Positions 6,293 to 36,589 of a DNA stretch of 64,000 nucleotides are shown here, piece by piece; position 1 is the stretch's first letter, and every line of letters begins with the position of its first letter. This DNA comes from Escherichia coli (GTDB lineage: Bacteria > Pseudomonadota > Gammaproteobacteria > Enterobacterales > Enterobacteriaceae). Below the pieces are notes generated by a model that saw only the letters and a list, made by a program, of their open reading frames with translations, made no database searches and was not told the origin of the DNA. A program made the position numbers and the translations under genes. The stretch lies in the NCBI RefSeq assembly GCF_030013205.1, contig NZ_CP122648.1. The stretch is one strand, 5' to 3'.

Positions 6293-6682
6293 ATGATTGA
6301 CGCTCATGACTTCACAAGATGGGTGCGCACACAGGACACCCGTCTGGCTCCCGTTCTTCAGGGATTATTTGATCTCTACATCCGTGGTCGTGACAACAGA
6401 GCACGCACCACAAAACCGGAGAATGCAGACACCCTTTATTTCACAGTAGACGACTGCTACCGCGTGGACTTCACACCACACGGGCTGGCGTTGCACTGCC
6501 TGACACCACACGGCGAATCACTACTGGCGTATTACGACTCCCCGGCCTCCGTATTTGCGGCAATGCTGGCGCATCGCACTGCTGGCGGGTGTGCCTCGCT
6601 GAGTGAATACACCGCTGAATTTGACCGCCTTTCCGCCATCTTCTCGCAGGAGTGGCAGCGCGTGACGGGATACCAGCCATGA
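6293..6682 (+). CDS. Hypothetical protein immediately upstream of gpA
   Basis: 129-aa ORF overlapping the gpA start. Confidence 0.4.
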   Translation: MIDAHDFTRWVRTQDTRLAPVLQGLFDLYIRGRDNRARTTKPENADTLYFTVDDCYRVDFTPHGLALHCLTPHGESLLAYYDSPASVFAAMLAHRTAGGCASLSEYTAEFDRLSAIFSQEWQRVTGYQP

Positions 6683-9504: not shown

Positions 9505-9552
9505 AGCGCGCACAAAACAGGCAAAAGCGGGATTCCAGAATCCCGTAAACGG
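9452..9552. repeat. Two ~25-bp palindromic repeats (cgggattcNNNNaatcccgtaaa) 73 bp apart, spanning the gpA 3' end and the parM upstream region
   Basis: aaacgggattcacaaatcccgtaaa at 9452-9476 and aaagcgggattccagaatcccgtaaacgg at 9524-9552. Confidence 0.5.
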
Positions 9553-9580: not shown

Positions 9581-10540
9581 ATGAAAATTTGTATCGACGA
9601 CGGCTCCACCAACATCAAGCTGGCATGGACTGAGAACGGCGAACGCCGCAACGCCATCAGCCCGAACAGCTTCAAGTCGGAATGGTCTGCGCCGTTCGGT
9701 GGCTCGCAGCCTGCGAACTACATGCTTGATGGCGTGCGCTATGGTTTTGATCCGGTCAGCGATCGCTTTGTCCAGACGACCGACACGCAATACCAGTACA
9801 GCGATGTGAATGTCATTGCCATTCATCACGCGCTGGTCAAATCAGGCATCACGCCTCAGGAGGTGGATGTGGTTGTCACCCTGCCACTGAGCGAGTATTT
9901 CGACACAAACGCACAGCCAGACATGGCCAACATCAACCGCAAAAAAGCGAACGTTATGCGCCCGGTGGAGTACCAGAACGGCGAAGCATTCACTATCCGT
10001 AACGTGCGGGTTATGCCTGAATCCATTCCGGCTGGTTTTAAGGCACTGGCTGACATGAGTCCGTTTGAATCCCTGCTGATTGTGGATTTGGGCGGAACCA
10101 CGCTGGATGTGGCAAAGGTTCAGGGGCAACTGGCAGGTATCAGCCAGGTGTTTTGCGATCCACACGTAGGCGTTTCTCTGATGGCTGATGCCGTGCTGTC
10201 GGTGATGGCCACTAACGGTATGCGTACCAGTCACCACATCGCCAATACCATTATTGAGCACCGTCACGATGAAGCCTGGCTACGCCAGCACATTCACAAT
10301 GACGCGCATTACAACAGCCTGATGGCGGTTATTCGTGAAAAGGAGGAAACACTGAAACAACGCGTGATCCGCGCGCTGGCGGGTTTTTCGGGTTACGGGC
10401 GGGTGATGGTTGTAGGTGGAGGAGCGGAGATTGTGGCACCCGCTATCCGCGAAGCCTGCGGAGTTAATGCGACTTTCATCGCGGACGGGGTGCCACAGTT
10501 TGCTCTGGTTAATGGGCTGTACGCAATGGACAAGGAGTAA
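9581..10540 (+). CDS. parM: ParM/StbA-like actin-family segregation ATPase
   Basis: MKICIDDGSTNIKLAW...ISPNSF...YSDVNVIAIHHAL...VMPESIPAG...IVDLGGTTLD...VGGGAEI...ALVNGLYAM tracks plasmid R1 ParM along its whole length (recalled alignment). Confidence 0.8.
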   Translation: MKICIDDGSTNIKLAWTENGERRNAISPNSFKSEWSAPFGGSQPANYMLDGVRYGFDPVSDRFVQTTDTQYQYSDVNVIAIHHALVKSGITPQEVDVVVTLPLSEYFDTNAQPDMANINRKKANVMRPVEYQNGEAFTIRNVRVMPESIPAGFKALADMSPFESLLIVDLGGTTLDVAKVQGQLAGISQVFCDPHVGVSLMADAVLSVMATNGMRTSHHIANTIIEHRHDEAWLRQHIHNDAHYNSLMAVIREKEETLKQRVIRALAGFSGYGRVMVVGGGAEIVAPAIREACGVNATFIADGVPQFALVNGLYAMDKE

Positions 10541-10544
10541 ATCA

Positions 10545-10859
10545 ATGACGACACCAACCAGACGGATAAGTTTCTATCTGAAGCCCGCCGTCGTCAAGAG
10601 CGAACGGGAGGCGTGCAGTTACCTCGACAGCCTGCCAGCCTCCGAACGCAGCCGCGCACAACGCGCGGCTTTTCTGGCCGGACTGGCTCTTATAAAACGC
10701 ATCCCCGCGTTGGCGTATTCGCTGGCAGAATGGTCAGAAGACGAAATAAGGATGCCACCGCTACCAGTACAGCCTGAAAAACCGGCGAAACCAGCAGCAG
10801 ACAGCGCCCCCCATATGCAGCAGGTGAAGAAGAATATTCAGGCGTTTTTTCCGAAGTGA
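10545..10859 (+). CDS. parR: ParR-like centromere-binding adaptor (putative)
   Basis: RRISFYLKPAVVKSEREACSYLDSLPASERSRAQRAAFLAGLALIKR resembles the R1 ParR N-terminal DNA-binding region; immediately downstream of parM. Confidence 0.6.
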   Translation: MTTPTRRISFYLKPAVVKSEREACSYLDSLPASERSRAQRAAFLAGLALIKRIPALAYSLAEWSEDEIRMPPLPVQPEKPAKPAADSAPHMQQVKKNIQAFFPK

Positions 10860-11600: not shown

Positions 11601-11858
11601 CTATCCGGCCTGCAACAACTCCAGAGCCATTTGTTTTTCTTCCGGACGCATCCGCTCAATCAACAGCTTTAACACACCATTCTCCAGCCCGCTGGGCACC
11701 AGTGTGTGCGAGTAGGTCAGATTCATCACCCAGGTATGTCCGCACTCGAGACGGGTGCAACGGTAATACACATCAGCAAACTGATCGGTTTTCCAGGCTG
11801 TTTTCTCAATCACTGCATGTGCACCGCAGCAATGACATCGCGCTTTCTGTCTGCGCAT
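11601..11858 (-). CDS. Ogr/Delta-family zinc-finger late transcription activator (putative)
   Basis: C-x-CC ... C-x4-C spacing (RCHCCG...YYRCTRLECGHTW) parallels P2 Ogr; start at the Met with a GGGAGGTGG RBS. Confidence 0.5.
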   Translation of the reverse strand: MRRQKARCHCCGAHAVIEKTAWKTDQFADVYYRCTRLECGHTWVMNLTYSHTLVPSGLENGVLKLLIERMRPEEKQMALELLQAG

Positions 11859-11923: not shown

Positions 11924-12958
11924 TCACTCCGTGGATTCGTTAAATTCAAGAATAAATTCCACCTGCCCCAGCCGTCTGATATCCGGATCGCTGTTGATCC
12001 CCTCCATAATCAGACGGCGCATCGGAATAACCTCATCTCTGTAATATGCCTCGCGGGATTTCAGTGGGTCACCAAGCCCGGCCGTATTTGCGGGAATGAT
12101 GCCGGCAAGTCCGGGTGGAAAACGGTGCGCAACGAGCTGATCCTGGGCACTGATGGTTTTTATATTCAGGAACTCATCTTTTGTGCCTGAATCCCCGATA
12201 GGGATCACCTTAACGCCTTCTTTGTCTCCGCCCGGTATATTGATAAACATGGATTTAAAATTGCCCGCCCCTTTTGACGCCTCTATCTTTTTACGGAATT
12301 CCGCCTCGAGCTCGGGATCCATGTCCGGGTCAGTGGAATACAGGATATAACCAAGATGTGCGCCGTTCTTGTAATACTTGCGGCGAAAGCGGGTGGCATC
12401 CACATTCAGCATGGCGGATTCCATCCCGTGAATATAATCCGGGACACCGTAAACCTGCTGTTGCGGGTCATAAATGGCCACGAACACCACTTCGCCTGGC
12501 GGGTAAACGAGATCTTCCAGTGCTGCCTGCACAATCACCGTGCCACCCTCGTTGTTACGCCGCAGGTACAGAGAAGGTAACGTATGCAGGCGCACCACGC
12601 GACCGAAGCCATTGCGCACTTTAAGCAACCCCATATCCCCGAATATCAGCAGATTGGTTACTGCTGCCGCCATGGCGGCGTGTGTCATACCACCACCACC
12701 CCGAAAACCCTGCATGATCATATTGACGCGCGCACGCAATACCGCGCCGTGATACGGTGCGATATTGGACAACATGGCGAGATCCATGCGCTCAATTGGC
12801 GGCGTGTACCAGCCGTTATAGCCATCCCAGAGCGAGCCGTAATAACAGCCCCATGCAGCGACCGGTTCCGGGTCACCAAATTCAATAAACGTCATTTTGC
12901 TGGCTGTTTTTTTTGCCACGCCATCGTGTAACACGGGGTATTTTTTCTTTTTACTCAT
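11924..12958 (-). CDS. Portal (capsid vertex) protein gpQ
   Basis: 344-aa ORF directly downstream of and co-oriented with the terminase ATPase, as for P2 Q. Confidence 0.8.
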   Translation of the reverse strand: MSKKKKYPVLHDGVAKKTASKMTFIEFGDPEPVAAWGCYYGSLWDGYNGWYTPPIERMDLAMLSNIAPYHGAVLRARVNMIMQGFRGGGGMTHAAMAAAVTNLLIFGDMGLLKVRNGFGRVVRLHTLPSLYLRRNNEGGTVIVQAALEDLVYPPGEVVFVAIYDPQQQVYGVPDYIHGMESAMLNVDATRFRRKYYKNGAHLGYILYSTDPDMDPELEAEFRKKIEASKGAGNFKSMFINIPGGDKEGVKVIPIGDSGTKDEFLNIKTISAQDQLVAHRFPPGLAGIIPANTAGLGDPLKSREAYYRDEVIPMRRLIMEGINSDPDIRRLGQVEFILEFNESTE

Positions 12959-14738
12959 CTGACAGGATCCATGTTGATTTGCGCTTGTGCTTATAGTTCA
13001 GGGGTTCATTACTTGCGGCATGAGCTATGGCAAAGAAGATGTCAGCGTGCCCGGTTTCTTCGCTACGTTCGGCGGTGAAAGTGACTTTATTGCCGCTGTT
13101 GGTGGATTCCTGACGAATGGCCAGGAACGATGCCGGAATATCCGTGGCTTCTTCATCCCACTCAATACGGTTGGCGTAAATCAGATCCAGCATCTTCATC
13201 ACCAGGCGGTTTTTGGATTCCACGCTGTAATGAATGGCCACTGTTTCACGGCGGGCAAATCCCTGAACCAGCTCAAAGACACCGTAGCCAAGACCGGTGA
13301 CGTCAATGCCGATAAATGTCATGTTATAGCGCGCCTTAATGCTGCGGATACGCTCTGCCATAAACTGGAATGACATGCTGCGCCAGTGGTGTTTTTCCAG
13401 CACGCGGAATCGTTCTGCCGCAACCAGCGGCGGTGCCAGCACAACAAATGTGGCGTTATCGCCGGAGCGCGCAGGGTCAAAGCCGCCCCACACTTCACGG
13501 TTACCAAATGGCATGGGCTCTTCCGGGTGAAAATCCTCCCACGTACTGACATCAACACCACAACGCACAAGATCATCGAATTTAAAGACGCTCTCTTTGT
13601 CATCCACAAACACACACATAAACAGCATATTGAACGCTGTTTCGTTGTATCGCTCGCGCAGCTCGTTGATGTCAGCAAGGTTAAAGCCGCCGGCAATGGC
13701 ATCTTCCAGCGTAACCACATAGCGCCACTGACCATCCGGACATTCACGCCCACCATCGCGCAGCTCATCAAAGGACGGAAACTCAACCCCTTTTCGTTTC
13801 GGATCGCCTTTGCGCCATTCATCGCCAGACCAGAACGGGTAACCCTGGTGTGTTTTGGATGACGGCGTGGAGAAATAGGTAATGCGCCAGTGTTTATGGG
13901 TGGCCATCCCTGATGCCACTTCATTGAGACGGCGAAAACCGGGGATCCACAGGTATTCATCAATATACAGGTGGCCGCTGTTTGACTGCGCTGTGTTACT
14001 GTTGGTCGCCAGAAAATACAGTTCAGCCAGATTACTTAACTTAACCGGATTGCCTTTAATGGGAATGCCAAACTCTGTTTGTGCAATTTTTACAATATAA
14101 GTACGGAACACTTCGGCCTGACGTTTTGATGCCGATAAAAATATCTGTGTGTCGCCGGTTAATACTGCATCTTCAAATGCCTCAAACGCGAAGTAATACG
14201 TCGCCCCAATCTGGCGGGATTTAAGCAGGTTGCGTACACGGCGGAATTTGTTTTCACGCAGATGCAACTGATAAGCAAACAACTTTTTCGTAAACGGCTC
14301 AAAACTTTCAGCAGTCAGTCCGGAAACGTCATTAGTTTTGCGGGGACGCTCTTTCTTACCTGCACCTTTTTCTCCGCGTTCTTCTTTTCCATAACGGCCA
14401 GGCTGGGGGATGTCCACTCCCATTCGCGCAATCTCAGCCATTCGTTCTGTATGCTTGTTTCTGACCGACATCAGTTTGACGTGATGACCAATCAGGCGAT
14501 CAAGCTCATCGTGTTCTTCCTGGGTCTTATGGTCACGTTCCGCCAGTACAGCGAGACGCCGGGCGATAACATCCTCCACGCCTTCCGTATTGAGCTGCGT
14601 GTACCACTCAAACTTTGTCGCCCAGTAATAAACAATTCGCGGACTGTTCAGTCCGAGTTTCTTTTGTATTTCTTTTGGTGTGTGCCTTTTCAGATAGAGT
14701 GATTTTGCTGCGGCAATCACCTCATCAGAATACGCCAT
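12951..14738 (-). CDS. Terminase large (ATPase) subunit gpP
   Basis: 595-aa ORF; size, position and divergence from the O-N-M-L operon as in P2. Confidence 0.85.
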   Translation of the reverse strand: MAYSDEVIAAAKSLYLKRHTPKEIQKKLGLNSPRIVYYWATKFEWYTQLNTEGVEDVIARRLAVLAERDHKTQEEHDELDRLIGHHVKLMSVRNKHTERMAEIARMGVDIPQPGRYGKEERGEKGAGKKERPRKTNDVSGLTAESFEPFTKKLFAYQLHLRENKFRRVRNLLKSRQIGATYYFAFEAFEDAVLTGDTQIFLSASKRQAEVFRTYIVKIAQTEFGIPIKGNPVKLSNLAELYFLATNSNTAQSNSGHLYIDEYLWIPGFRRLNEVASGMATHKHWRITYFSTPSSKTHQGYPFWSGDEWRKGDPKRKGVEFPSFDELRDGGRECPDGQWRYVVTLEDAIAGGFNLADINELRERYNETAFNMLFMCVFVDDKESVFKFDDLVRCGVDVSTWEDFHPEEPMPFGNREVWGGFDPARSGDNATFVVLAPPLVAAERFRVLEKHHWRSMSFQFMAERIRSIKARYNMTFIGIDVTGLGYGVFELVQGFARRETVAIHYSVESKNRLVMKMLDLIYANRIEWDEEATDIPASFLAIRQESTNSGNKVTFTAERSEETGHADIFFAIAHAASNEPLNYKHKRKSTWILSDE

Positions 14739-14932: not shown

Positions 14933-15829
14933 ATGACGAAGCAGAAAACAGACTGGGTTGTGGTTGCCACATCAGGCCCCACCATCGACGGTCGGGAAAT
15001 TGATCCGAAGTGGCTGACGGATGCCGCCGAGGTTTACAACCCGGACGAGCGAGCCGCCATGCTCTGGCCATATCACGCCGATTCCGGATGGCGTGCCTTC
15101 ACCAATAACTACGGCATTGTTGATGCCCTGAAAGTCGAAAAATTTGGTGAAAAGGTGCAGCTTAAAGCACGCCTGATCCCAAATCGCTTCCTGATTGAAG
15201 CCAATAAGGCCGGGCAGAAACTTTTTACCTCCATTGAAGTGCGGGAAAACTATCTGGGCACGGGCAAATTCTTTGTGTCCGGTATCGCCGTGACGGATAC
15301 CCCAGCCAGCATTAACACTACACGCCTGCAGTTTTCCATGGGGGAAGCCATCCATATGGGCAACGCAGAGGCGCTGAATTTTACGCTGCAGCCTGATGAT
15401 GAGCAGGCCAAGCGCAACTTCTTCTCCCGCTTCTTCTCATCTGACAATCACCAACAGGGAATTTACCAAGCCATGAACGAAGAACAGTTCAGCCAGTTAA
15501 TGGGTGCCATTAATAAAACCAGTGAACGCCTGGACGAGCTGGAAAAAAACGTCGCGCAGTTCAGCGCGAAGGATGCCCCGAAAGATACCGGTGATAACAA
15601 GCCGGAAGGCAGCACCGGCGATCAGGGGCAGGACAACGCAGAACAGAACAACAAGGACGACAAAACCTTCACGCTGACCACCGAGCAGGGCGAAAAGCTG
15701 TTCTCCACAGTGAACGCCATCGCGGAGAAGGTTACCAGTATGGAAACCGCATTTGCTGAACTCAGCAAGGACGCCACGAAGCTGCCGGGCAACAATCCGG
15801 CCGGTGGCGAAACTTTTAACCTGGTGTAA
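14933..15829 (+). CDS. Capsid scaffolding protein gpO
   Basis: ...FFVSGIAVTDTPASINTTRLQF... resembles the P2 gpO core; first gene of the O-N-M-L operon. Confidence 0.8.
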   Translation: MTKQKTDWVVVATSGPTIDGREIDPKWLTDAAEVYNPDERAAMLWPYHADSGWRAFTNNYGIVDALKVEKFGEKVQLKARLIPNRFLIEANKAGQKLFTSIEVRENYLGTGKFFVSGIAVTDTPASINTTRLQFSMGEAIHMGNAEALNFTLQPDDEQAKRNFFSRFFSSDNHQQGIYQAMNEEQFSQLMGAINKTSERLDELEKNVAQFSAKDAPKDTGDNKPEGSTGDQGQDNAEQNNKDDKTFTLTTEQGEKLFSTVNAIAEKVTSMETAFAELSKDATKLPGNNPAGGETFNLV

Positions 15830-15843
15830 CCGGAGAGAACACA

Positions 15844-16857
15844 ATGAACATGACACCAGAAGCACAAAAGCTGGTTAATCAGTACATCAGCGAACTGCAA
15901 AAAACATTCAGCGACTGCGGAAAATCAAGCGATCGTTTCTTTTCGCTGACCGAACCACGCAGTATTGCTCTGCGTAAAGCCCTGCTGGAAAGCACGGAGT
16001 TTCTGAGTTTCATCACCTGCATGGACGTTCCGCACCCGCAGGGGCAGGTCGTCACCGTGGGCGAATCCACGCTGCGCACCGGTCGCGTGAAAAGCGGTCG
16101 TTTCGCTAAAGGTTCGGGCATCAAAGGCAACGAATTTAAACTCGTTGAAACTGATTCCTGCTGCGTGATCACCTGGGAACAACTCGCCATCTGGGCGAAT
16201 GCCGGTAGCCCGCAGGAATTTTTCAACCTGATGAACTCCGCCGCCGTCACCAACTTTGCGCTGGATATGCTGCGCATTGGCTTTAACGGTAAAACAGCAG
16301 CGGAAAACTCTGACCCGGAAAGTCACCCGAACGGCGAAGACGTCAACATCGGCTGGCATGAAATCGCCAAAAAGTGGGGAGAACAGCCCGGCAATACCTC
16401 CCGTATTCTGACGGACGCCGTTACCCTGGGCGAAGGCGGTGATTATGTCAGCCTTGATGCCATGGCCTCAGACCTGATCCGCACTTATATCCCGGCGCAA
16501 TATCACAACGATCCTCGCCTTACTGTACTGGTTGGCGCAGACCTTGTGGCTGCTGAAGAACTACGCCTCTACAACAAAGAGGACAAGCCCACCGAAAAAG
16601 TGGCCGCACAGTTGCTGACGAAGAACATCGCAGGCCGCAAGGCCATCATTCCGCCGTTTATGCCGGGTAAGCGTATGGTGGTGACCATGCTGCCAAACCT
16701 GCAGATCCTGACGCTGAAGGGTTCCCGCCGTCGTAAAGCGGAAGATGTGGGCGATCGCAAACAGTTCGAAAACTCATACTGGCGTTACGAGGGGTACGCC
16801 CTGGGCGATCCGGATTTATATGCTGCCGTGGATGAGTCTGCGGTCACCATCGCCTGA
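15844..16857 (+). CDS. Major capsid protein gpN
   Basis: ...LGEGGDYVSLDAMASD... matches the P2 gpN GKGGDYASLDAL region; 337 aa. Confidence 0.85.
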   Translation: MNMTPEAQKLVNQYISELQKTFSDCGKSSDRFFSLTEPRSIALRKALLESTEFLSFITCMDVPHPQGQVVTVGESTLRTGRVKSGRFAKGSGIKGNEFKLVETDSCCVITWEQLAIWANAGSPQEFFNLMNSAAVTNFALDMLRIGFNGKTAAENSDPESHPNGEDVNIGWHEIAKKWGEQPGNTSRILTDAVTLGEGGDYVSLDAMASDLIRTYIPAQYHNDPRLTVLVGADLVAAEELRLYNKEDKPTEKVAAQLLTKNIAGRKAIIPPFMPGKRMVVTMLPNLQILTLKGSRRRKAEDVGDRKQFENSYWRYEGYALGDPDLYAAVDESAVTIA

Positions 16858-16874
16858 TAAACGGAGCGCACGGT

Positions 16875-17585
16875 ATGCCAACGCCAATGCAGCGACAACG
16901 TGCCCGACAGATGGATGAGCGCCGTGCGGCGCTCATGACCAGAACGGACGGGCGCGCCGTCAGCACAGAGAGTCAGCACATTAAGCTGCTGGCACTGGAT
17001 AACGATGTCAGACAACTGCACAACATGGAGCTGCTGTCTGACAAGCTGGAATTCAAACGGAACACGCTGCTGCCCCGCTGGCTGCCACACGCACAGGCTT
17101 ATCTGGAGGGGGAACGCGTCTATCAGAATCCCATTCTGGTGTACTGCATCATCTGGCTGTTCGATACCGGGCAGTTTGAGATGGCGCTGCGGTGGGCTGA
17201 CATTGCCATTGAGCAGGGACAAAAGACGCCGGAGAACTTCAAAAGCGAGCTGCCAACGTTTGTGGCCCATTTCATTCTTGAATGGGCAGAAACCGAAGCT
17301 GAACGCGGGAACAGTATCGCGCCATATTTTCAGCAGGTGTTTGAAAAAATCCGCGACAAATGGCGCGTGAATGAACGCCTTGCTGCCCGCTACTGGCGCT
17401 TTGCAGGCATCCTGCTGCTGCGCGGCGATGACGGCAAGCCACAGGCCAGCGCAATTAACGATCCGGAGAGACTGCAACAGGCCGACCAGTGCCTGGAACG
17501 GGCTGCCTGGCTGCATCCCAAAATTCAGGTGAAAACCCTGCGCCAGCGCATTGCCGCAAGACTGCGCGCGTTGCAGGGCACGTAA
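16875..17585 (+). CDS. Terminase small (endonuclease) subunit gpM
   Basis: Position and recalled similarity to P2 gpM. Confidence 0.75.
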   Translation: MPTPMQRQRARQMDERRAALMTRTDGRAVSTESQHIKLLALDNDVRQLHNMELLSDKLEFKRNTLLPRWLPHAQAYLEGERVYQNPILVYCIIWLFDTGQFEMALRWADIAIEQGQKTPENFKSELPTFVAHFILEWAETEAERGNSIAPYFQQVFEKIRDKWRVNERLAARYWRFAGILLLRGDDGKPQASAINDPERLQQADQCLERAAWLHPKIQVKTLRQRIAARLRALQGT

Positions 17586-29104: not shown

Positions 29105-30397
29105 ATGAGCGCACTGTTGACGAAAGCATTTGAAAAGTGGGTTGCTGAATGCGCAGCCAGTAATTTACCTGCACGCCCTGACGCTATTATTTTTGCTCTG
29201 ATGGAGCGGGAACCAACGCGCGAAGATAATACCGTTCCGGAAGAAAAAATCACATATGCTGTGAATGAACTGACCTATGGCCAGTTAAACCCGAACAATA
29301 TTGTGTGTAGCGCGGTTGTTCCTGATGACTGTGCATTCAGCTATGACTGGATTTGCCTCATCCATCAGGCCAGTGGAACACTATGCGGCGTAATAAAAAC
29401 GTCTGTTCAACAAAAAGTAACAGGCGAGTCACTTATTCGTAATTTCACGATTATATACAGCGGCATTGCTCAGGCTGCGCAAATTACCGTTCCTCCACAG
29501 AGCTGGCAGGTGGATATTACCCCCGAGCTGAAATCAATGCTGAAAGCTCCTAACCGACTGTCAGAAATTGCAGCAGAGGGGGAAGAGGCGCAACAGGAAT
29601 CCCGAGACAATCTGGGGTTGAAAGGTGCTGCTTTGCTTGATGTTCAGAGCGATATCTACGACCGCACCGCAGGCCGTCTGGCGTTACCCGGTGCATTCGG
29701 ATACGGGCATTTATTCTCTTCGTCGGAAGTCGTGTATTTCAGCGCGCAAAATGGCCCCGCCGAATTTCTTAAATGGGTATTTGAGGTCACACCAGGGCGT
29801 TATGCGGTAACGCAGTACGGTGGTTCTGGTAATTGGTATAACCCCATCATTGCTTATGATGGGGGGAATGTATATTTCAGGGGGCTTGTAGATATAGAAA
29901 TACGAAGTGGAATGGCCACTAATGGCACCGAAAGCAATGGTCGGTGGGTAACCTTTCATGGCGATGCCGAATACACTGGCCAGTATGGTGAGGGGCCGGC
30001 TAAGTATCAGGTATTGGTTACAAAATCAATGTCTTCGGCGACACTTCCCGGGGCATGGTCGCGGCTATTCTGGTCACGCGACCGACTGAGACAACTGTTA
30101 TGTGCAGGAGATACTACATCACAGCGTGCTCCGCAACCGGGTAGCCTGGTTCTTGCCGCATACCTGCCAGATAGCGGCAGCAGTGATGTTGCGTTACTTC
30201 GTGTACAAGCTGTGCCGGGCTCAAGGCTCCGGCAGGTGGTCTTCGAAGCGGAGTACCGCAGCTCGGGATTTAGTGCCGCTGCCAGGTCGTTTGTCTATGG
30301 GAGTACCCTGCCTGGCACATACTTCGCTTTATCAGGAGGCCCGGATGTCACGTTTTATAATCGGGGACTGGTTTCTTTGTTTGTGAGGGCTACATGA
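29105..30397 (+). CDS. Tail fibre protein 2 (paralogous N-terminal domain, different C-terminus)
   Basis: N-terminal ~150 aa align with fibre 1 (PARPDAIIFAL vs PARPDTFVFAY; SLIRNFTIIY vs NLIRTFSMEF; WQVDITPEL vs WQIDFTARL). Confidence 0.6.
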   Translation: MSALLTKAFEKWVAECAASNLPARPDAIIFALMEREPTREDNTVPEEKITYAVNELTYGQLNPNNIVCSAVVPDDCAFSYDWICLIHQASGTLCGVIKTSVQQKVTGESLIRNFTIIYSGIAQAAQITVPPQSWQVDITPELKSMLKAPNRLSEIAAEGEEAQQESRDNLGLKGAALLDVQSDIYDRTAGRLALPGAFGYGHLFSSSEVVYFSAQNGPAEFLKWVFEVTPGRYAVTQYGGSGNWYNPIIAYDGGNVYFRGLVDIEIRSGMATNGTESNGRWVTFHGDAEYTGQYGEGPAKYQVLVTKSMSSATLPGAWSRLFWSRDRLRQLLCAGDTTSQRAPQPGSLVLAAYLPDSGSSDVALLRVQAVPGSRLRQVVFEAEYRSSGFSAAARSFVYGSTLPGTYFALSGGPDVTFYNRGLVSLFVRAT

Positions 30398-30969
30398 TGC
30401 AGATTAAAGATATTAAAAACCCTCGTTACCTGGAATCTGGCGCGATTGACTGCGAGGTGCTTTTGGAAGGGATGGATGAAGCCGTTCCCTACACAGCCAC
30501 GCCAGAAGACACAGCAACAACAGGCCAGAAAATTTGGCAGGAGCTGCAAAGCGGCAAATGGGGCGAAATCGCCCCGTTCACCGTCACGCCGGAACTTATC
30601 GCTGCGGCAAAAGATGCCAAAAAGCGGGAAATCGAGGCGTGGCGTACAGAACAGGAAGCACTGCCGTTCACGTTCGAATGGAACGGTCGCACCTGGAACG
30701 CTGGCCCCGACTCAATGGCCCGTCTTTATCCGGTAGTAATGGCGGCGAAATCTGACACGGCGCGGGACGTTATGGCGTGGGGTGACGTCGATAATCAACA
30801 GGTGAGACTGTCAATGCCGGAACTGGAAGAACTGGCGACAGCAATGGCGCAGGCACAGGTCGATCGCAATGACGAGATTTATCGCCGTCAGCGACAGATG
30901 AAGGACGTGCTGGATAGCCTTAATAATCTTGCCGACATCCGCGCTTTTCAGGCTGGAGAGTCAGAATGA
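30394..30969 (+). CDS. Second tail fibre assembly chaperone (putative)
   Basis: 191 aa directly downstream of fibre 2, overlapping its stop. Confidence 0.45.
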   Translation: MMQIKDIKNPRYLESGAIDCEVLLEGMDEAVPYTATPEDTATTGQKIWQELQSGKWGEIAPFTVTPELIAAAKDAKKREIEAWRTEQEALPFTFEWNGRTWNAGPDSMARLYPVVMAAKSDTARDVMAWGDVDNQQVRLSMPELEELATAMAQAQVDRNDEIYRRQRQMKDVLDSLNNLADIRAFQAGESE

Positions 30970-31679: not shown

Positions 31680-32226
31680 CGGGGAAGCCATTCTGCTGCG
31701 CAACATCACCGTCAGCGCCACCATGCAACTACCGGACAAAGATATGTCCGGACAGTCAACCAGCACCACGAGCGCCCAGCAGGGAAACAAGGCTAAAGAG
31801 CTGCGCGTTTCGGGGGTTATTGATTTTAACGATGAAGCCATTCTGACCCGTATTTTTCAGCTTGCGGAAGCAACAGAAAGCAACGGCGCTAAAAAAACAT
31901 ATCGCATTGCTAACGCTACCGCGAAGGCAATCAATATGCGACAGGGGATATTTTCTGGTGGCATTGATGCCACGGAACAACAGGGAAAAATGCACTGGCA
32001 GGTCACCTTTACTCTCAGGGAAAAATTAAGCGTGCCAGAGAAAGCATCAGCACGTAGCGGTTCACAAAAAACCATCGCCAGACAGCAGACCCAGAATGGC
32101 AGCGAACAGGCACCAGACAAAGGCATGAATACGCAAAGTTCGTTCTGGAAAAAAATCAATGATGCCGTTGGCTCTGGTCTGGATGCTGTTGGCATCGGGA
32201 GCGTGAAAGAGGAAGGGAAAACATGA
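31651..32226 (+). CDS. Hypothetical protein
   Basis: 191-aa ORF between the fibre module and the spike gene. Confidence 0.4.
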   Translation: MTQMIVLALDGEAILLRNITVSATMQLPDKDMSGQSTSTTSAQQGNKAKELRVSGVIDFNDEAILTRIFQLAEATESNGAKKTYRIANATAKAINMRQGIFSGGIDATEQQGKMHWQVTFTLREKLSVPEKASARSGSQKTIARQQTQNGSEQAPDKGMNTQSSFWKKINDAVGSGLDAVGIGSVKEEGKT

Positions 32227-33920
32227 AATTGATACAACGCTGCATGATTAATGGCGAACGGGTGGAAATTGCCGATATAAGCCTTGTTCTTACCCTGAAT
32301 GCTGCCGGTCGTGGCTTCATTTCTGTTAACAATCTGTCATCCGAACACAGCCTTGCCGGCGCAATGGTACAAATTGATCTCGGTCGTGACGGTGAAGCAT
32401 GGCGCTATTTCTCCGGCTATATTGAGCGCGATCAACCTGCTGAAAATGGCTCACGTCGCCTTTTTATTCGTGAAGCGGCTGCTGTGCTGGATTTTGATTT
32501 CCCCTGCTCCATGCAACACCCGACGTTGCGGGAGGTACTCGATAATCTGGGGCGACAAAGCGGTATCGTTTTTATCACTCCGGATGCGGATTATGCCAGT
32601 ATACCAACTCCCTACATCACCCACAGCGGCAGCGGAGCACAACTGCTCAGCCAGCTGGGGCGAGCATTCAGTATCAACGATTACGTCTGGCACCCTATGC
32701 CGGACGGTTCTGTATTTGTGGGAAGTGCAGCTGATTCACGATTTGCCAGCATTACAATGCCGGATATTCCGCAACAGTACACACTCGGGCAAAGCGGCGG
32801 AAACAGCATCGACATCATGTTTATGGAAACTGTGCGACCGGGCGTGAACCTTCCGGCCGGGCGCATTACCCGTGTAGCCCTCAACAACGAGAAAATGACC
32901 CTGACATGGGAGCGCCTTACCGCCACGGGCAGCCCTGTCTCCAAATCACCATTACGCAGACAGATGGAAACACAGTTCCCGGAACTGGCCAGCGGCACAC
33001 TACACACCAGGCTGGCGCGCGTCATTGCACCAACGGAATCCGCCACCCTGGGCGATGTGGCCGACAGCTTCCGTCCACGCTACGCCGTGGACGTGCAACT
33101 GCTCGATGAGGACGGCAACGATAAAAGCGATACGCCTGTTTACCCGGCAGTCCCACTCCCCGTCCCGATGGCTGGTAGCGAGGCGGGATGTTTTGCCTAC
33201 CCGCCGGCAGGCACCATCGTGGAAATATCTAACATTGAAGGGCGCCCGGATAAACCTGTTATCAGGCAAATCTTACCTGCTGGCCATAACCTGCCTGATG
33301 TAAAGCCCGGCGAACAACTGCAGCAACAGCGCGCAGAAGTGTTTCAGCGCGTCACGACTGACGGAAGCTGGCACAGAGAAACAGACCAGCAAATCAGGGA
33401 GCAGTCAGCCACCCGCACAATTAACAGTGATGCAGAAGAGCGCACCACAACAACCAGAACAACCACAGTACGGGCAAACGACATAACCAGTGTTCTGGGA
33501 ACCAGCAAGCTGGCGGCAGGACAAATAGAGCACCTTACTACCGGCCATTACGCGATCGCAGCCAGCGAGCATATCCAGATGGTAGCGCAGGATTTGCTGA
33601 CTAAACTCAAAGGGGCAATATCCACAATTGAGCAGGACCTGACTGAAAACGTGGGAGGCCGCAGAACATGCCGGGCGGACGGCGGTCTGAAGTTTACAGC
33701 CCCGACAGTATTTATTGGTCGCGGTGGCTCACGGGAAAAATCCGAACTTAATCTGCTGACGTTGTTGATTGATATTCTGGATCTGATTCAATTGCTGGCC
33801 ACGCACACAGCAAACCACACCCACAGCAACACTGGCGCACCAATGAACAGCGGCGAACTTGCCGCAGATGCCCTGCAGGCTACGAGCCTGCGCGAAAAAT
33901 ACGGCGACCTTATCGCCTGA
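32223..33920 (+). CDS. Baseplate hub/central spike protein (putative)
   Basis: 565 aa; C-terminal ...LIDILDLIQLLATHTANHTHSNTG... carries HxH repeats like the metal-binding apex of phage central spikes. Confidence 0.45.
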   Translation: MKLIQRCMINGERVEIADISLVLTLNAAGRGFISVNNLSSEHSLAGAMVQIDLGRDGEAWRYFSGYIERDQPAENGSRRLFIREAAAVLDFDFPCSMQHPTLREVLDNLGRQSGIVFITPDADYASIPTPYITHSGSGAQLLSQLGRAFSINDYVWHPMPDGSVFVGSAADSRFASITMPDIPQQYTLGQSGGNSIDIMFMETVRPGVNLPAGRITRVALNNEKMTLTWERLTATGSPVSKSPLRRQMETQFPELASGTLHTRLARVIAPTESATLGDVADSFRPRYAVDVQLLDEDGNDKSDTPVYPAVPLPVPMAGSEAGCFAYPPAGTIVEISNIEGRPDKPVIRQILPAGHNLPDVKPGEQLQQQRAEVFQRVTTDGSWHRETDQQIREQSATRTINSDAEERTTTTRTTTVRANDITSVLGTSKLAAGQIEHLTTGHYAIAASEHIQMVAQDLLTKLKGAISTIEQDLTENVGGRRTCRADGGLKFTAPTVFIGRGGSREKSELNLLTLLIDILDLIQLLATHTANHTHSNTGAPMNSGELAADALQATSLREKYGDLIA

Positions 33921-33958
33921 GCTCCCGACATAAAACCCACATAAACGCCCCATCAAAC

Positions 33959-33985
33959 AACGCACGGTTCCGACCGTGCGTTTTT
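33959..33985 (+). terminator. Intrinsic terminator after the tail operon
   Basis: aacgcacggttccgaccgtgcgtttttc hairpin plus T-run. Confidence 0.6.
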
Positions 33986-34749
33986 CATATCCACCACCTG
34001 ATTAATGCGTTCTGCGTGCCATTCCGGCGCTGTATGCACACACCGCGTAAACGGTGTGACGTAAAGTGTGAGGTGACGTAAACCGCGCTACCCCCTCCAA
34101 CCCGCGGGTTTTGTGTCGAAACAGTTTTTCAGTTTTCTGCCGTGCAAAACTGACCGCCAGCCCGCGCAGCAACTGAGGAAAAAGCGAAGATCTGAAATTT
34201 CACGCTTTGAAATTTTTTGCAGTTTTCAGAGGGATTTTTACGATCTCATGAATGGCAGGAGAAAGAAAACAGGCTGATATTAAAAGAGTTTTCATACTTT
34301 ACGTGGGACAAGACGCGATCGCGAAAGGATCGCATCAAAAAATCTTCAAACAACGAAGCCAGACGCGGCGCGGCCTGCGTAAGATTGAGAGTCAAAATTA
34401 AACTGAAAAAAGGATCAATACCGCGCCTCGATCGCACATGACGATCTACGCAGCAACAGGACAAAAAAACCGGCGCGAACGCCGGCGGAAGCATGTATCA
34501 AATGCGTGACTGAATAATGTCTACGGTCGGGAATTTTATATCAAAAGGCTGACAGGCCTCAACGGATTGAAACAAGGGAAAAAACCAGGCTAGAATTCGC
34601 GCGGGTGCCTTTCGGCTGATGGTCGGAGGGAATACCCGAAGGCCGGATGTGGAAAGGCCCCGGAAAACATTTCTGTTTAACCGAGGCCCTAACATATCTA
34701 CCTTAAGCAAGTGATAGGTTAGCGCCTCTCCAACAAAGGAGCAAGCGCT

Positions 34750-34890
34750 ATGTCGCAAAAATCGCTTACGGCCATCACGTTCTGCGTGACGGTAATCCTC
34801 ATCATCTGGATGCTGCACGGCTCGCTGTGTGAAATACGGATGAGCTTCTGGGGAGCGGAGTTTGCGGCGTTCTTACAGTGTAAACAGTAA
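34750..34890 (+). CDS. Hok/Gef-family type I toxin (46 aa)
   Basis: MSQKSLTAITFCVTVILIIWMLHGSLCEIRMSFWGAEFAAFLQCKQ carries the Hok/Gef SLCEIR...AAF signature; long structured leader upstream; below the ORF-track cutoff. Confidence 0.65.
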   Translation: MSQKSLTAITFCVTVILIIWMLHGSLCEIRMSFWGAEFAAFLQCKQ

Positions 34891-35025
34891 GGAAACCGCG
34901 ACGGGGGAGCAATCCCCCGTCAATCGGTTGCCAGGGTATGGTCGAAGTGGCACCCAAATTTAAATTGAGGCCCACCAGTAAGAGTGGTGGGCTTAACGCT
35001 TATTTAAATTTGAAAGGAACTCTTT

Positions 35026-35322
35026 ATGAGTGAAATGGTATTTTGTCGCGGATGCGGCAAGGAAATACATAAAGATGCCACATCCTGCCCCAATTGTGGA
35101 GCACCTCAAAGAACAGCAAGTTCAAAAAGCAGAATGACAGCCGCACTACTGGCTTTCTTTTTAGGTGGTCTTGGAGCACACAAATTTTATTTAGGTAAAG
35201 TGGGGCAAGGATTCCTTTACCTTATTTTTTGCTGGACATTCATTCCGGCAATCGTGGCATTTATTGAGTTTTTTATCTATCTATGCACCTCTGATGAAGA
35301 CTTTGCCCGCAAATATGGCTAA
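35026..35322 (+). CDS. Zinc-ribbon plus TM2-domain membrane protein
   Basis: CRGCGKEIHKDATSCPNCGAP zinc ribbon followed by LLAFFLGGLGAHKFYLGKVGQGFLYL; AT-rich. Confidence 0.6.
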   Translation: MSEMVFCRGCGKEIHKDATSCPNCGAPQRTASSKSRMTAALLAFFLGGLGAHKFYLGKVGQGFLYLIFCWTFIPAIVAFIEFFIYLCTSDEDFARKYG

Positions 35323-35347
35323 TGCCTAGTGGGCGAATCAGAATGAC

Positions 35348-35382
35348 AAACCCGCAGCGTAAAAACTGCGGGTTTTCTTTTT
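35348..35382 (+). terminator. Intrinsic terminator after the TM2-domain gene
   Basis: aaacccgcagcgtaaaaactgcgggttttcttttt. Confidence 0.6.
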
Positions 35383-35429
35383 GCTACCCTCACAAATGAG
35401 GACACCATACATAAGCAATAGGCATAACA

Positions 35430-35464
35430 GATCGATGCAATAAATCCGATCGATAAAAACGATC
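35430..35464. promoter_or_regulatory. Cluster of three GATCGAT (Dam GATC) sites upstream of the com-like gene
   Basis: GATC at 35430-35433, 35448-35451 and 35461-35464, about 50-80 bp upstream of the com-like start. Confidence 0.4.
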
Positions 35465-35511
35465 GATTTGTTATCATATCGGCAGCAGTAACCACACAAG
35501 AGGTGCCGCAA

Positions 35512-35709
35512 ATGACGCAAAATGTACGATGCAAAAATTGCAACAAACTACTTGCCCGCGCCTCATTTCACTACATTGAAATAAAATGTCCGCGCTGCAA
35601 AACACTTAACCAGATAACGAGAGCCATCGAGCACCCCACACACATGAGGAGTTATGACCGTGGGGATCGCAATCCAGCACCAACCAGCACATATACCGGA
35701 ACACACTAA
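35512..35709 (+). CDS. com: Com-like zinc-finger translational regulator (phage Mu Com family, putative)
   Basis: MTQNVRCKNCNKLLARASFHYIEIKCPRCKTLNQITRAIEHPT vs recalled Mu Com MKSIRCKNCNKLLFKADSFDHIEIRCPRCK...CEHPT; AAGAGGTG RBS; overlaps the 5' end of the methyltransferase ORF. Confidence 0.6.
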   Translation: MTQNVRCKNCNKLLARASFHYIEIKCPRCKTLNQITRAIEHPTHMRSYDRGDRNPAPTSTYTGTH

Positions 35710-36460
35710 GGTTTATCAGACTGACAATGCCACGCTCTGTCGTGGGAATGCGCTGGAAATATTGCCGCTGATTGAGCCAGAAAGCATTGATGCCTTAATC
35801 ACTGACCCGCCTTACAGTTCGGGTGCGACACACAAGGCCGGACGCACCAACCAGGGCAGCCATGCAAAATATCTGAACGGCGAGAACCTTCACCGCTTTG
35901 ATGGGTTCGCTGGTGAAAACATGGACGCCCGTTCGTGGGCTTACTGGACACAATTATGGATGGCACAGGCACACCGTGCAGTCAGGCCGGGCGGTTATGC
36001 CCTGGTATTTACTGACTGGCGACAACTACCAGCTTTAACCGATGCGTTTCAGGCCAGTGGCTTTACATGGCGCGGCATCATTGCGTGGAACAAGGGGAGG
36101 GGGTCACGAACACCCCATACGGGGTATTTCAGGCATCAGTGCGAATACATCGTCTGGGGCAGCAAAGGCCATTTAGATAAATCGCCTTCGGGGCCGTTCG
36201 ACGGTTGCATGACGTACCCGGTTATCCCGTCAAAGAAAATGCACCCGACCGGAAAACCAGAAGAACTAATGGCGGAACTGGTCAGGACTGTGAATAGTGG
36301 CGGAACAGTCCTTGATCCTTTTATGGGGTCAGGGACAACGGGTGTGGCTGCACTGAAAGCAGGGCGAAAATTTATTGGTATAGAAACCAGTGATCATTAT
36401 TTTGAGGTAGCAGCGCAGCGGCTTCGAGAGACTATTACCACAACCATTTCGGCTACATAA
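35654..36460 (+). CDS. DNA amino-methyltransferase (N6-adenine or N4-cytosine; DPPY motif before the AdoMet motif)
   Basis: ...IDALITDPPYSSG... and ...VLDPFMGSGTTGVAALKAGRKFIGIE...; start lies inside the com-like ORF (ATG 35654, or GTG 35660). Confidence 0.8.
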   Translation: MTVGIAIQHQPAHIPEHTKVYQTDNATLCRGNALEILPLIEPESIDALITDPPYSSGATHKAGRTNQGSHAKYLNGENLHRFDGFAGENMDARSWAYWTQLWMAQAHRAVRPGGYALVFTDWRQLPALTDAFQASGFTWRGIIAWNKGRGSRTPHTGYFRHQCEYIVWGSKGHLDKSPSGPFDGCMTYPVIPSKKMHPTGKPEELMAELVRTVNSGGTVLDPFMGSGTTGVAALKAGRKFIGIETSDHYFEVAAQRLRETITTTISAT

Positions 36461-36562
36461 GACAAAGCCCACATTTTTTTGCGGGCTTGTATATCATTAC
36501 TGATGTGGACAGTTTGTGGATGTTTATAAGAAATAAGCTAATAGAAACAATTCGTTAGCTTT

Positions 36563-36589
36563 ACAAAAAACGCGCCCGAAGGCGCGTTG
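36563..36589. repeat. attR copy of the 27-bp direct repeat; doubles as the raiA intrinsic terminator
   Basis: acaaaaaacgcgcccgaaggcgcgttg; hairpin aacgcgcc-cgaa-ggcgcgtt plus T-run on the raiA strand. Confidence 0.65.

What the first reader, a model, noticed from the sequence alone, without database searches (positions are those of the whole stretch)
33990..34560. Noncoding stretch after the tail operon with a triple CGTAAA direct repeat
About 570 bp with no credible ORF (candidate frames are basic and low-complexity). It contains gcgtaaacggtg / gacgtaaagtg / gacgtaaaccg at 34040..34090, spaced about 1.5 helical turns apart and sharing the CGTAAAC core with the parM-upstream palindromes, plus an AT-rich palindromic segment (gaaatttcacgctttgaaatttttt). 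It could be a regulatory or binding-site array, or the promoter region for the hok locus.
Basis: seen in the sequence. Interest (0 to 1): 0.35.

Follow-up and report, generated by a model that had tools for sequence, protein, structure and literature searches.

The report
Phage DNA-packaging (cos) site region
The gene-free stretch after the tail genes is most likely the prophage's cos site, where its DNA is cut for packaging into virus heads, and the CGTAAA repeats sit right beside the predicted cut point; a small parasitic satellite element carries a near-identical copy.

Summary
Window 33990-34560 has no credible ORF. Three direct CGTAAA repeats lie at 34046, 34060 and 34077, and an AT-rich palindrome lies at 34194-34218.

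The interpretation (regulatory array, hok promoter, link to parM) is mostly wrong. The stretch is the largest non-coding gap of a P2-like E. coli prophage.

Its core, 34056-34111, is almost invariant in 33 distinct copies. The copies include a 12.4-kb satellite that shares no other non-coding DNA with the prophage.

The core aligns at z = 13-15 with the same genome position in the nearest sequenced relatives: Cronobacter phage ESSI-2, Escherichia phages ESSI2_ev040/ev129/ev239 and Yersinia phage vB_YenM_324.

In ESSI-2 the linear record starts and ends there with a 15-nt terminal repeat. In the three ev phages, which were sequenced from virion DNA, the assemblies stop inside the same 15-mer, with the library adapter butted directly onto the phage sequence.

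That 15-mer corresponds to window 34088-34101, between dyad arms AAACCGCG and CGCGGGTTT. The region is therefore a cos site that is neither P2-type nor placed as in P2.

The repeats lie on the tail-gene side of the cut site. They are probably recognition elements for the small terminase subunit; this is inferred, not tested.

It is ordinary in kind but previously unannotated.

The parts
33959..33985 (+). Intrinsic terminator of the tail/baseplate operon (AACGCACGGTTCCGACCGTGCGTTTTT). It marks the left edge of the block shared with the satellite.
   Evidence: Terminator scan. Conserved in relatives and in the satellite downstream of an unrelated gene.
34039..34058 (.). Palindrome CACACCG-CGTAAA-CGGTGTG that carries repeat 1 (CGTAAA at 34046-34051) in its centre.
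   Evidence: Sequence. One compensatory A-T to G-C change in the satellites, but also two disruptive changes in other copies.
34056..34065 (+). Repeat 2, GTGACGTAAA. It aligns with the GACAAAATAAA element of the ESSI-2-type family consensus.
34073..34083 (+). Repeat 3, GTGACGTAAAC, four bases from the predicted cut region. It is the family-wide conserved element GAC[GA]NAAAC.
   Evidence: Invariant in 33 copies. Conserved in ESSI-2, ev040, ev129, ev239 and vB_YenM_324 and at >=95% at key positions in 76 distinct IMG/VR sequences.
34080..34111 (.). Predicted cosN: dyad arms AAACCGCG (34080-34087) and CGCGGGTTT (34103-34111) around a C-rich centre. The predicted cohesive-end segment is CTACCCCCTCCAAC (34088-34101, uncertain by a few bases).
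   Evidence: It aligns to ESSI-2 CTACACCGCACCCGC, which is that record's 15-nt terminal repeat and the place where the ev040, ev129 and ev239 virion assemblies end against adapter. It occurs once in the window.
34125..34170 (.). Conserved right-arm elements TTTTTCAGTTTTC (34125-34137) and CCGCCAGCCCGCGCAGC (34154-34170).
   Evidence: Conserved in the satellite and in all ESSI-2-type relatives.
34194..34227 (.). AT-rich palindrome GAAATTTCA-N5-TGAAATTTTTT followed by a second TTTTGCAGTTTTC.
   Evidence: The arms are kept and the loop is changed in the satellite. It aligns with AAACTGAAAAGATTGAAAAGAATTTCA in the wider family.
34276..34308 (.). Conserved block GATATTAAAAGAGTTTTCATACTTTACGTGGGA that contains an inverted copy of ACGTAAAGT.
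   Evidence: (I6). ATTAAAAGAGTTTT is also present in ESSI-2.
34357..34413 (.). Inverted partner of 34125-34170 (GCCAGACGCGGCGCGGCCTG ... AAACTGAAAAAA). It ends the backbone part; variable cargo begins at about 34416-34446.
   Evidence: Inverted repeats I1, I3 and I10. Conserved in the satellite. Homology to L017 and L030 stops at 34416 and 34446.
34189..34446 (.). Cluster of 7 GATC sites, several within RGATCGCA.
   Evidence: about 1 expected per 300 bp, though one other place in the window reaches 8. Kept in helper lineages and absent from the satellite copy.
34462..34486 (-). Minus-strand intrinsic terminator. It belongs to the variable hok-side cargo, not to the conserved cos block.
   Evidence: Absent in L017, L030 and the satellites.
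34567..34890 (+). hok module, the right neighbour and not part of the feature: promoter-like site 34567-34596, leader 34603-34760, hok CDS 34750-34890.
   Evidence: Matches to hok loci of phages and plasmids begin at about 34560-34580.

Best explanation
The stretch is the cos (cohesive-end) packaging region of a P2-like (Peduoviridae) prophage of E. coli.

During lytic growth the phage terminase (large subunit gpP homologue at 12951-14738, minus strand; small subunit gpM homologue at 16875-17585) would recognise this region on concatemeric DNA. It would make staggered nicks in the C-rich centre at about 34088-34101, which is flanked by the dyad AAACCGCG/CGCGGGTTT. The DNA between two such sites would then be packaged.

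The three direct GACGTAAA-type repeats lie immediately on the tail-gene side of the cut site. They are most likely the recognition or anchoring elements for the small terminase subunit, playing the role cosB plays in lambda. The conserved T-rich and GC-rich blocks on the other side (34125-34227) are further parts of the site.

A 12.4-kb satellite that encodes no terminase carries a near-identical copy. It presumably uses it to be packaged by this phage.

Shown: conservation, homology to the relatives, physical DNA ends in the relatives, and sharing with the satellite. Inferred: cleavage in this phage, the exact nick positions, the polarity of the overhang, which protein binds the repeats, and that the satellite is mobilised by this prophage.
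For: 1. Genomic setting. The prophage runs from int at 2046 to about 36563, between pheA and raiA, and has P2-family head and terminase genes. It has no P2-type cos 19-mer at <=3 mismatches, and only chance-level hits to a degenerate version. Segment 33921-34749 is its largest non-coding gap.

2. Conservation. About 50 of 5426 complete E. coli genomes hold the stretch, always after the 565-aa baseplate gene, with the prophage at different integration sites. In 33 distinct copies, 34061-34100 has 2 variable positions. The adjacent coding sequence is only about 91% identical.

3. Satellite. A 12.4-kb element at tRNA-Arg (L041 12787-25182) has a P2-family capsid gene, a primase, an Ogr/Delta protein and integrases, but no terminase. 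The non-coding DNA it shares with the prophage is 33959-34226 and 34275-34305, about 95% identical over 34025-34140. Beyond that it shares only hok, ogr and a 43-bp terminator. Six of the 9 genomes with the satellite also hold this rare prophage. In the P2/P4 system, cos is the only region homologous between helper and satellite (PMC9122126).

4. Homology to relatives. The nearest sequenced relatives have the same gene order and orthologous baseplate, terminase and gpM proteins (46-59% aa). Window 34040-34240 aligns to their non-coding region at the same position with z = 12.8-15.3 and 0 of 500 shuffles reaching the score.

5. Physical ends.
   - ESSI-2: the linear record begins 198 bp past the baseplate stop codon, and its first 15 nt equal its last 15 nt (GCGGGTGCGGTGTAG).
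   - ev040...GCAGGCGGGTGC | adapter | GTGTAGCGCC....
   - ev129: adapter | GTAGCGCC... at one end and ...GCAGGCG | adapter at the other.
   - ev239...GCAGGCGGGGGC | adapter.
   - The ev phages were sequenced from DNase-treated, PEG-purified virions (PMC6969025).
   - That 15-mer aligns to window 34088-34101.

6. Repeat element. GAC[GA]NAAAC just before the 15-mer is conserved in all relatives and in 76 distinct IMG/VR sequences. A second GACAAAATAAA unit lies about 20 bp upstream of it.

7. Cargo. Variable cargo starts right after the block: hok with or without TM2, a Com/methyltransferase pair, DUF4875 and an acetyltransferase, or non-hok cargo. This mirrors the cargo hotspots next to cos in P2 and P4.
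Against: - No virion DNA of this particular prophage lineage is available. None of about 30 homologous viral or metagenome contigs ends in the core. Cleavage here therefore rests on homology.
- The site is not next to the portal and terminase genes as in P2.
- It has no significant similarity to the P2/P4 55-bp cos core (z < 2), although that core is conserved even in Ralstonia P2-like phages (PMC5694545).
- The centre differs from the ESSI-2 15-mer at 5 of the 14 aligned positions and is one base shorter.
- Nothing shows which protein binds the repeats. Only the copy nearest the cut site, and more loosely a second one, are conserved outside this lineage.
- Some satellites redirect helper terminase to a different cos, so sharing of DNA is not by itself proof.
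Confidence: 0.85

Rival explanations
1. A transcriptional control region. The repeats are operators for a phage or host regulator that controls hok, the downstream cargo or a nearby late promoter.
For: Direct repeats and palindromes are typical of operators. An inverted ACGTAAAG copy overlaps the -35 position of a possible minus-strand -10 (TAATAT, 34282->34277). The satellites carry two extra GACGTAAA copies just upstream of their hok promoter.
Against: - No sigma-70-like promoter is found inside 33990-34530 on either strand.
- The block is independent of hok and of any particular cargo.
- There is no gene on the minus strand for it to drive.
- No copy of the motif lies in the immunity/early control region or at the prophage ends.
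- No P2-type late-promoter dyad (TGT-N12-ACA) is conserved.
- This reading does not explain why virion DNA of relatives ends inside the homologous core.
Confidence: 0.05
2. A small-RNA gene: a plus-strand transcript ending at the hairpin 34080-34111 plus U-run, with a C-rich (anti-Shine-Dalgarno-like) loop as its seed.
For: Hairpin with a 15-nt C-rich loop followed by TTTTGTGT. One compensatory change in the upstream hairpin 34039-34058.
Against: - No Rfam match at E <= 1 in 33000-36000 apart from the hok leader (Rfam sok family) and a weak MicC-like hit at 35265-35389.
- Folding energy is unremarkable: z = -1.56 on the plus strand and +0.06 on the minus strand.
- No promoter-like site.
- Stem mutations in L011 are not compensated, and in the upstream hairpin two lineages break a pair.
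- In ESSI-2-type relatives the sequence is conserved but the stem is kept only as short dyad flanks.
Confidence: 0.03
3. A second centromere (parC-like site) for the prophage's ParM/ParR-like partition system, related to the palindromes upstream of parM.
For: The prophage encodes ParM (9581-10540) and a Plasmid_stab_B/ParR-like protein. The upstream hairpins at 9456-9478 and 9530-9552 end in CGTAAA, and one shares the 10-mer CGTAAACGGT with repeat 1.
Against: The units upstream of parM are 23-bp hairpins (CGGGATTC-N3-GAATCCCG + TAAA), which are unlike GTGACGTAAA. ESSI-2, vB_YenM_324 and the satellite lack parM/parR yet keep the element next to the cut site.
Confidence: 0.02
4. Non-functional spacer or decayed gene. 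The equivalent position in phage P88 is occupied by an ogr-like gene.
For: P88 has an Ogr-like ORF between its last tail gene and hok. The 34230-34400 part is variable and mosaic.
Against: The core is more conserved than the neighbouring coding sequence. It is conserved across genera and across helper and satellite. The ogr-like gene of this prophage lies elsewhere, at 11604-11858.
Confidence: 0.02

Closest known systems
cos site of phages P2, 186 and satellite P4 (55-bp core, 19-nt cohesive ends; Ziermann & Calendar 1990, as cited in PMC9122126 and PMC5694545)
   Same: Same virus family and the same terminase families (gpP and gpM). G/C-skewed cohesive-end segment. Shared almost unchanged between a helper prophage and a satellite about one third its size. 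A hotspot of variable accessory genes lies directly beside it.
   Different: No significant sequence similarity. No P2 19-mer in the prophage, the satellite or the relatives. Located after the last tail/baseplate gene, near the att side, instead of between gene A and portal gene Q. The terminal repeat in ESSI-2 is 15 nt, not 19.
Genome termini of Cronobacter phage ESSI-2 and Escherichia phages ESSI2_ev040/ev129/ev239 (Peduoviridae: Seongnamvirus, Quadragintavirus, Evevirus)
   Same: Orthologous position (after the 565-aa baseplate gene), homologous flanks (z = 13-15), and the same order of elements: GAC[GA]NAAAC, C-rich 14-15-mer, TTTTTCAGTTTT, CGCCAGCCCGCGC.
   Different: The central segment reads CTACCCCCTCCAAC here and CTACACCGCACCCGC there. 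This lineage has three clear ACGTAAA-type repeats instead of one or two A-rich units. I found no paper that describes these termini as a cos site.
Lambda cos (cosN flanked on one side by cosB with three R repeats bound by gpNu1 and an IHF site). Recalled from established knowledge, not tested here.
   Same: A nicking site with partial dyad symmetry, with a one-sided array of three short repeats next to it.
   Different: Unrelated sequence and unrelated small terminase family. Binding of the repeats by terminase is not shown here.
P1 pac site (hexamer repeats containing GATC; cleavage controlled by Dam methylation). Recalled from established knowledge, not tested here.
   Same: A packaging site accompanied by a cluster of GATC-containing repeats (7 GATC in 34189-34446).
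   Different: P1 packages by the headful mechanism. The GATC cluster here lies 90-350 bp from the cut site and is missing from the satellite copy.

Membership tests
cos site of a cohesive-end tailed phage | Virion DNA ends at this sequence (staggered cleavage giving cohesive ends) | tested here: inconclusive
   Not testable for this prophage, because no virion data exist. In four homologous phages the linear records or virion assemblies end inside the aligned 15-mer: a 15-nt terminal repeat in ESSI-2, and adapter butted against it in ev040, ev129 and ev239.
cos site of a cohesive-end tailed phage | Phage encodes a cos-type terminase (large and small subunit) | tested here: met
   Terminase_6N/6C with a gpP-like N-terminus at 12951-14738, and Phage_term_smal (gpM) at 16875-17585.
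cos site of a cohesive-end tailed phage | Single copy per genome, non-coding, conserved among relatives that share the terminase | tested here: met
   One match in the window at <=3 mismatches. No ORF support. Near-invariant in 33 copies and homologous across genera.
cos site of a cohesive-end tailed phage | Carried by satellites that depend on the helper's terminase | tested here: met
   The 12.4-kb satellite without terminase shares this block, and 6 of the 9 genomes that carry it also hold the prophage. Dependence on this helper is inferred, not shown.
P2/P4-type cos (55-bp core) | Sequence similarity to the 19-nt cohesive end GGCGAGGCGGGGAAAGCAC and its flanks | tested here: not met
   No match at <=3 mismatches in the window or the satellite. 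Local alignment z < 2 against P2 and P4 cos.
P2/P4-type cos (55-bp core) | Position between replication gene A and portal gene Q | tested here: not met
   That interval holds parM, parR, an Rrf2 gene and ogr, with only short gaps. The feature lies about 22 kb away, after the tail operon.
hok/sok locus (upstream regulatory part) | Travels with hok; contains the hok or sok promoters or the mRNA leader | tested here: not met
   The hok promoter and leader start at 34567 and 34603. hok loci elsewhere lack the block. The block occurs without hok.
parC centromere of a ParM/ParR (type II) partition system | Iterons matching those upstream of parM; co-occurrence with parMR | tested here: not met
   Only a 6-10-nt overlap with the parM-upstream hairpins. 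The element is kept in phages and in the satellite that lack parMR.
small regulatory RNA | Promoter, terminator, conserved structure with covariation, or a match to a known family | tested here: not met
   No Rfam match in the stretch, no promoter-like site, fold z-scores of -1.6 and 0.06, and uncompensated stem changes.

The most novel reading that the evidence does not exclude
This is the cos of a distinct and widespread Peduoviridae packaging lineage (ESSI-2 type; its 19-mer is in more than 120 IMG/VR contigs). That cos is unrelated in sequence to the P2 core and sits at the end of the tail operon. In E. coli it is shared with, and exploited by, an undescribed 12.4-kb satellite that brings its own P2-family capsid gene, an Ogr/Delta activator and two integrases. 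The GACGTAAA repeat array would be the specificity element the satellite must copy to be packaged.
Probability: 0.5. Interest if true: 0.55.

Novelty: new member of a known kind. Interest (0 to 1): 0.42.

Why it matters
It fills an unannotated 570-bp gap with a concrete, testable function: the packaging site of a prophage family found in about 1% of complete E. coli genomes.

It also shows that P2-family terminases do not all use the P2 cos core or the P2 cos position.

Knowing the site lets one predict virion chromosome ends. It explains why variable cargo (hok, a methyltransferase, an acetyltransferase and others) accumulates right beside it. It also identifies which satellites this phage family can mobilise, which bears on horizontal transfer in pathogenic E. 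coli, since many carriers are STEC or ETEC strains.

The site itself is an ordinary kind of element.

Tried and rejected
- Nucleotide searches of phage and plasmid collections with 33900-34760 matched only the hok part.
- Rfam found nothing in the stretch, and RNA folding of both strands was unremarkable.
- Coding potential: no Pfam hits. The one minus-strand ORF that stays open in the satellite was rejected, because substitutions fall equally on all codon positions.
- P2/P4 cos: my first impression of a 12/19 resemblance did not survive a shuffle test.
- P2-type cos next to the portal gene: the 65-bp Q-ogr gap contains GGGGAAAG, but that part is not shared with the satellite.
- Replication origin: rejected. 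The helper uses gpA (ori inside the gene in P2-type phages), and the satellite has its own GGTTACA iteron field.
- attP or integrase arm sites: rejected. The prophage ends are 2.5 kb away, the integration site varies while the block does not, and there are no motif copies at the ends.
- Cox-box-like sites: no motif copies in the early control region.
- Contig-end evidence in IMG/VR, GTDB and metagenomes: no contig ends in the core. Two end at about 34218-34228, which is the boundary of the helper/satellite repeat and so an assembly break.
- The GTDB scan found only E. albertii beyond E. coli.
- Literature searches for vB_YenM_324, ev239 and ESSI-2 termini found no description of this cos.

Full report
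**Setting**

The window is E. coli chromosome carrying a roughly 34.5-kb prophage between pheA and raiA/bamD. From left to right the prophage has:

- an integrase (2046-3068, minus strand);
- a gpA-type replication protein (6652-9504);
- ParM and a ParR-like protein (9581-10859) and an Rrf2 regulator;
- an Ogr/Delta-like zinc-finger gene (11604-11858, minus strand);
- portal Q and terminase P on the minus strand (11924-14738);
- scaffold, capsid and small terminase gpM (14933-17585);
- a long tail operon that ends with a 565-aa baseplate protein (32223-33920).

The finding lies between that gene's terminator (33959-33985) and a hok module. The hok module consists of a promoter-like site at 34567-34596, a leader matching the Rfam sok family at 34603-34760, and the CDS at 34750-34890.

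- The three CGTAAA repeats are at 34046, 34060 and 34077. Two are the exact 10-mer GTGACGTAAA, 17 bp apart, and inverted copies lie at 34237 and 34298.
- Five copies in 300 bp is the maximum anywhere in the window, with Poisson P of about 4e-6 per 300-bp window.
- The AT-rich palindrome is at 34194-34218.
- No ORF is credible. There are no Pfam hits. The plus strand is closed in all three frames by the TAA triplets of the repeats. The single minus-strand ORF that stays open in relatives accumulates substitutions equally at all codon positions.
- No Rfam family matches, no sigma-70-like promoter lies inside 33990-34530, and RNA folding of the conserved part is not better than shuffles.

**Conservation**

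The stretch has no match in the phage or plasmid collections; only the hok part matches. About 50 of 5426 complete E. coli genomes hold it. It always follows the baseplate gene, is never annotated, and the prophage sits at different chromosomal sites: raiA, flk, serS and a tRNA-Leu/tRNA-Cys cluster.

Across 33 distinct copies from genomes and IMG/VR contigs:

- 34056-34111 is nearly invariant, with 2 variable positions in 34061-34100;
- the adjacent coding sequence is about 91% identical;
- 34230-34400 is mosaic.

The backbone block ends at about 34416-34446. Beyond that the cargo differs. Some copies have hok with or without the minus-strand terminator at 34462-34486. In L017 and L054 there is a different gene and no hok. 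The block is therefore not part of the hok locus.

**A satellite shares the block**

Two divergent IMG/VR contigs (L018, L029) and the complete copy in strain STEC316 (L041) belong to a 12.4-kb element integrated at tRNA-Arg. It is bounded by a direct repeat of the tRNA 3' end (L041 12787-25182).

The element encodes:

- a P4-type integrase and an AlpA-like regulator;
- a P2-family capsid protein (44% aa identity to the prophage's);
- an Icd-like protein and a Toprim primase;
- a second integrase (49% aa identity to the prophage's);
- an Ogr/Delta protein (90% aa identity to the prophage's);
- hok, but no terminase or portal.

Its DNA matches the prophage only in 33959-34226 (about 95% over 34025-34140), 34275-34305, hok, a 43-bp terminator and ogr, plus weakly in the capsid gene. 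Six of the 9 genomes with the satellite also hold this rare prophage.

In the P2/P4 system the only region homologous between helper and satellite is cos, and accessory-gene hotspots lie directly beside it (PMC9122126). That suggested cos here too. However, the core shows no significant similarity to P2 or P4 cos. No P2 19-mer exists in the prophage or the satellite. No homologous contig ends in the core.

**Decisive evidence from relatives**

The closest terminases in the phage collection (55-60% aa) belong to Yersinia phage vB_YenM_324, Cronobacter phage ESSI-2 and the Escherichia ESSI2_ev phages. They have the same gene order and orthologous baseplate (46% aa) and gpM (48% aa) proteins.

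Window 34040-34240 aligns with their non-coding DNA at the same position, with z = 15.3 (ESSI-2), 14.1 (vB_YenM_324) and 12.8 (ev040). None of 500 shuffles reached these scores.

The physical ends of the relatives' DNA map to that alignment:

- ESSI-2: the linear record begins 198 bp beyond the baseplate stop codon. Its first 15 nt equal its last 15 nt, GCGGGTGCGGTGTAG. This is the pattern expected when cohesive ends are filled in.
- ESSI2_ev phages: these were sequenced from purified, DNase-treated virions (PMC6969025), and their records still contain library adapter exactly at this place.
  - ev040 reads ...GCAGGCGGGTGC | adapter | GTGTAGCGCC....
  - ev129 has adapter | GTAGCGCC... at one end and ...GCAGGCG | adapter at the other.
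  - ev239 ends ...GCAGGCGGGGGC | adapter.

Four phages therefore have DNA ends inside one 15-mer. In window orientation it reads CTACACCGCACCCGC, and it aligns to window 34088-34101, CTACCCCCTCCAAC. That segment lies between the dyad arms AAACCGCG (34080-34087) and CGCGGGTTT (34103-11). The ESSI-2-type 19-mer occurs in more than 120 IMG/VR contigs.

**What the repeats are**

In all relatives, and in 76 distinct IMG/VR sequences, the element GAC[GA]NAAAC sits four or five bases before the 15-mer. A second unit, GACAAAATAAA, lies about 20 bp further upstream.

In the window these correspond to repeats 3 and 2. Repeat 1 is specific to this lineage and sits inside a 20-bp palindrome.

The simplest reading is a composite cos. 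It has a nicking site with dyad flanks, a one-sided array of short direct repeats for the small terminase subunit (as R1-R3 of lambda cosB serve gpNu1), and further accessory elements on the other side. Which protein binds the repeats is inferred, not tested.

**Rivals**

- An operator or promoter array fails for several reasons. There is no promoter. The block is independent of hok and of cargo. No motif copies lie in the early control region. It also cannot explain the physical ends in relatives.
- A small RNA has no support from Rfam, promoter scans or covariation.
- A parC-like centromere is contradicted by phages and a satellite that keep the element without parMR.
- Junk is contradicted by the conservation.

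**Verdict**

The finding is real. It is best explained as the cos region of a Peduoviridae prophage lineage (confidence 0.85 for cos; about 0.5 for the repeats being small-terminase sites).

The kind of element is well known. This member is unannotated and differs from P2 in both sequence and position. It is also shared with an undescribed satellite that encodes its own capsid protein.

Interest is moderate. The hok-promoter and parM readings are not supported.

Noticed in passing
L041 12787-25182 (E. coli STEC316, NZ_CP041431.1); also L018, L029, L049: A 12.4-kb satellite-like element at tRNA-Arg. It has its own P2-family capsid gene, an Ogr/Delta protein 90% identical to the prophage's, a Toprim primase, two integrases (one 49% identical to the prophage's), hok and the shared cos block. 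Six of the 9 genomes that carry it also hold the window-type prophage.
   Followed up: partly
L041 14960-15320: A field of about 14 GGTTACA/TGTAACC iterons with AT-rich DNA, flanked by a long inverted repeat, between ogr and the second integrase of the satellite. It is probably the satellite's replication origin.
   Followed up: no
window 9456-9552 and 9581-10859: An integrated P2-like prophage encodes ParM and a ParR-like (Plasmid_stab_B) protein. Two 23-bp hairpin repeats, CGGGATTC-N3-GAATCCCGTAAA, lie just upstream and overlap the end of gene A. This looks like a parC-type site, which is odd for an integrated phage.
   Followed up: partly
window 11604-11858 (minus strand): An Ogr/Delta-type late activator gene lies directly downstream of portal gene Q, instead of after the tail genes as in P2 and P88. 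Only 65 bp separate it from Q.
   Followed up: partly
L069 (NC_049392.1) 29127-29203 and 1-116; L071 (NC_049394.1) 1-43 and 30879-30927; L070 (NC_049393.1) 29627-29668: RefSeq records of the ESSI2_ev phages contain Nextera adapter sequence. ev239 also has a poly-A tail and about 116 nt of odd sequence at its start. The adapters sit at the physical genome ends, which is what made them informative here.
   Followed up: yes
window 34189-34446: Seven GATC sites in 260 bp, several within RGATCGCA. They are conserved in the prophage lineage and absent from the satellite copy. ESSI-2-type relatives also carry GATC pairs on this side of the cut site. Dam-dependent control of packaging, as at P1 pac, is possible.
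   Followed up: partly
window 34462-34562 (minus strand): A good minus-strand terminator (34486->34462) lies about 40 nt downstream of a weak promoter-like site (34562->34533), divergent from the hok promoter. It could be a roughly 65-nt RNA or an insulator. It is present only in some hok-bearing variants.
   Followed up: no
window 34125-34170 versus 34357-34411: An inverted duplication of about 50 bp (TTTTTCAGTTTT...CCGCCAGCCCGCGC and its reverse complement) brackets the variable middle part of the spacer. ESSI-2 seems to have only one copy.
   Followed up: no
window 34891-36563 and loci L002-L015, L017: The genes between the cos block and the prophage end differ from strain to strain: hok, a TM2 protein, a Com-controlled DNA methyltransferase, DUF4875, a serine acetyltransferase, a RuvC-like protein and others. 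This is a cargo hotspot beside cos, as reported for P2 and P4.
   Followed up: partly
window 35265-35389: A weak sub-threshold Rfam MicC-like hit (28.5 bits against a gathering score of 90). It looks like no more than a terminator hairpin, and 43 bp of it are shared with the satellite.
   Followed up: no
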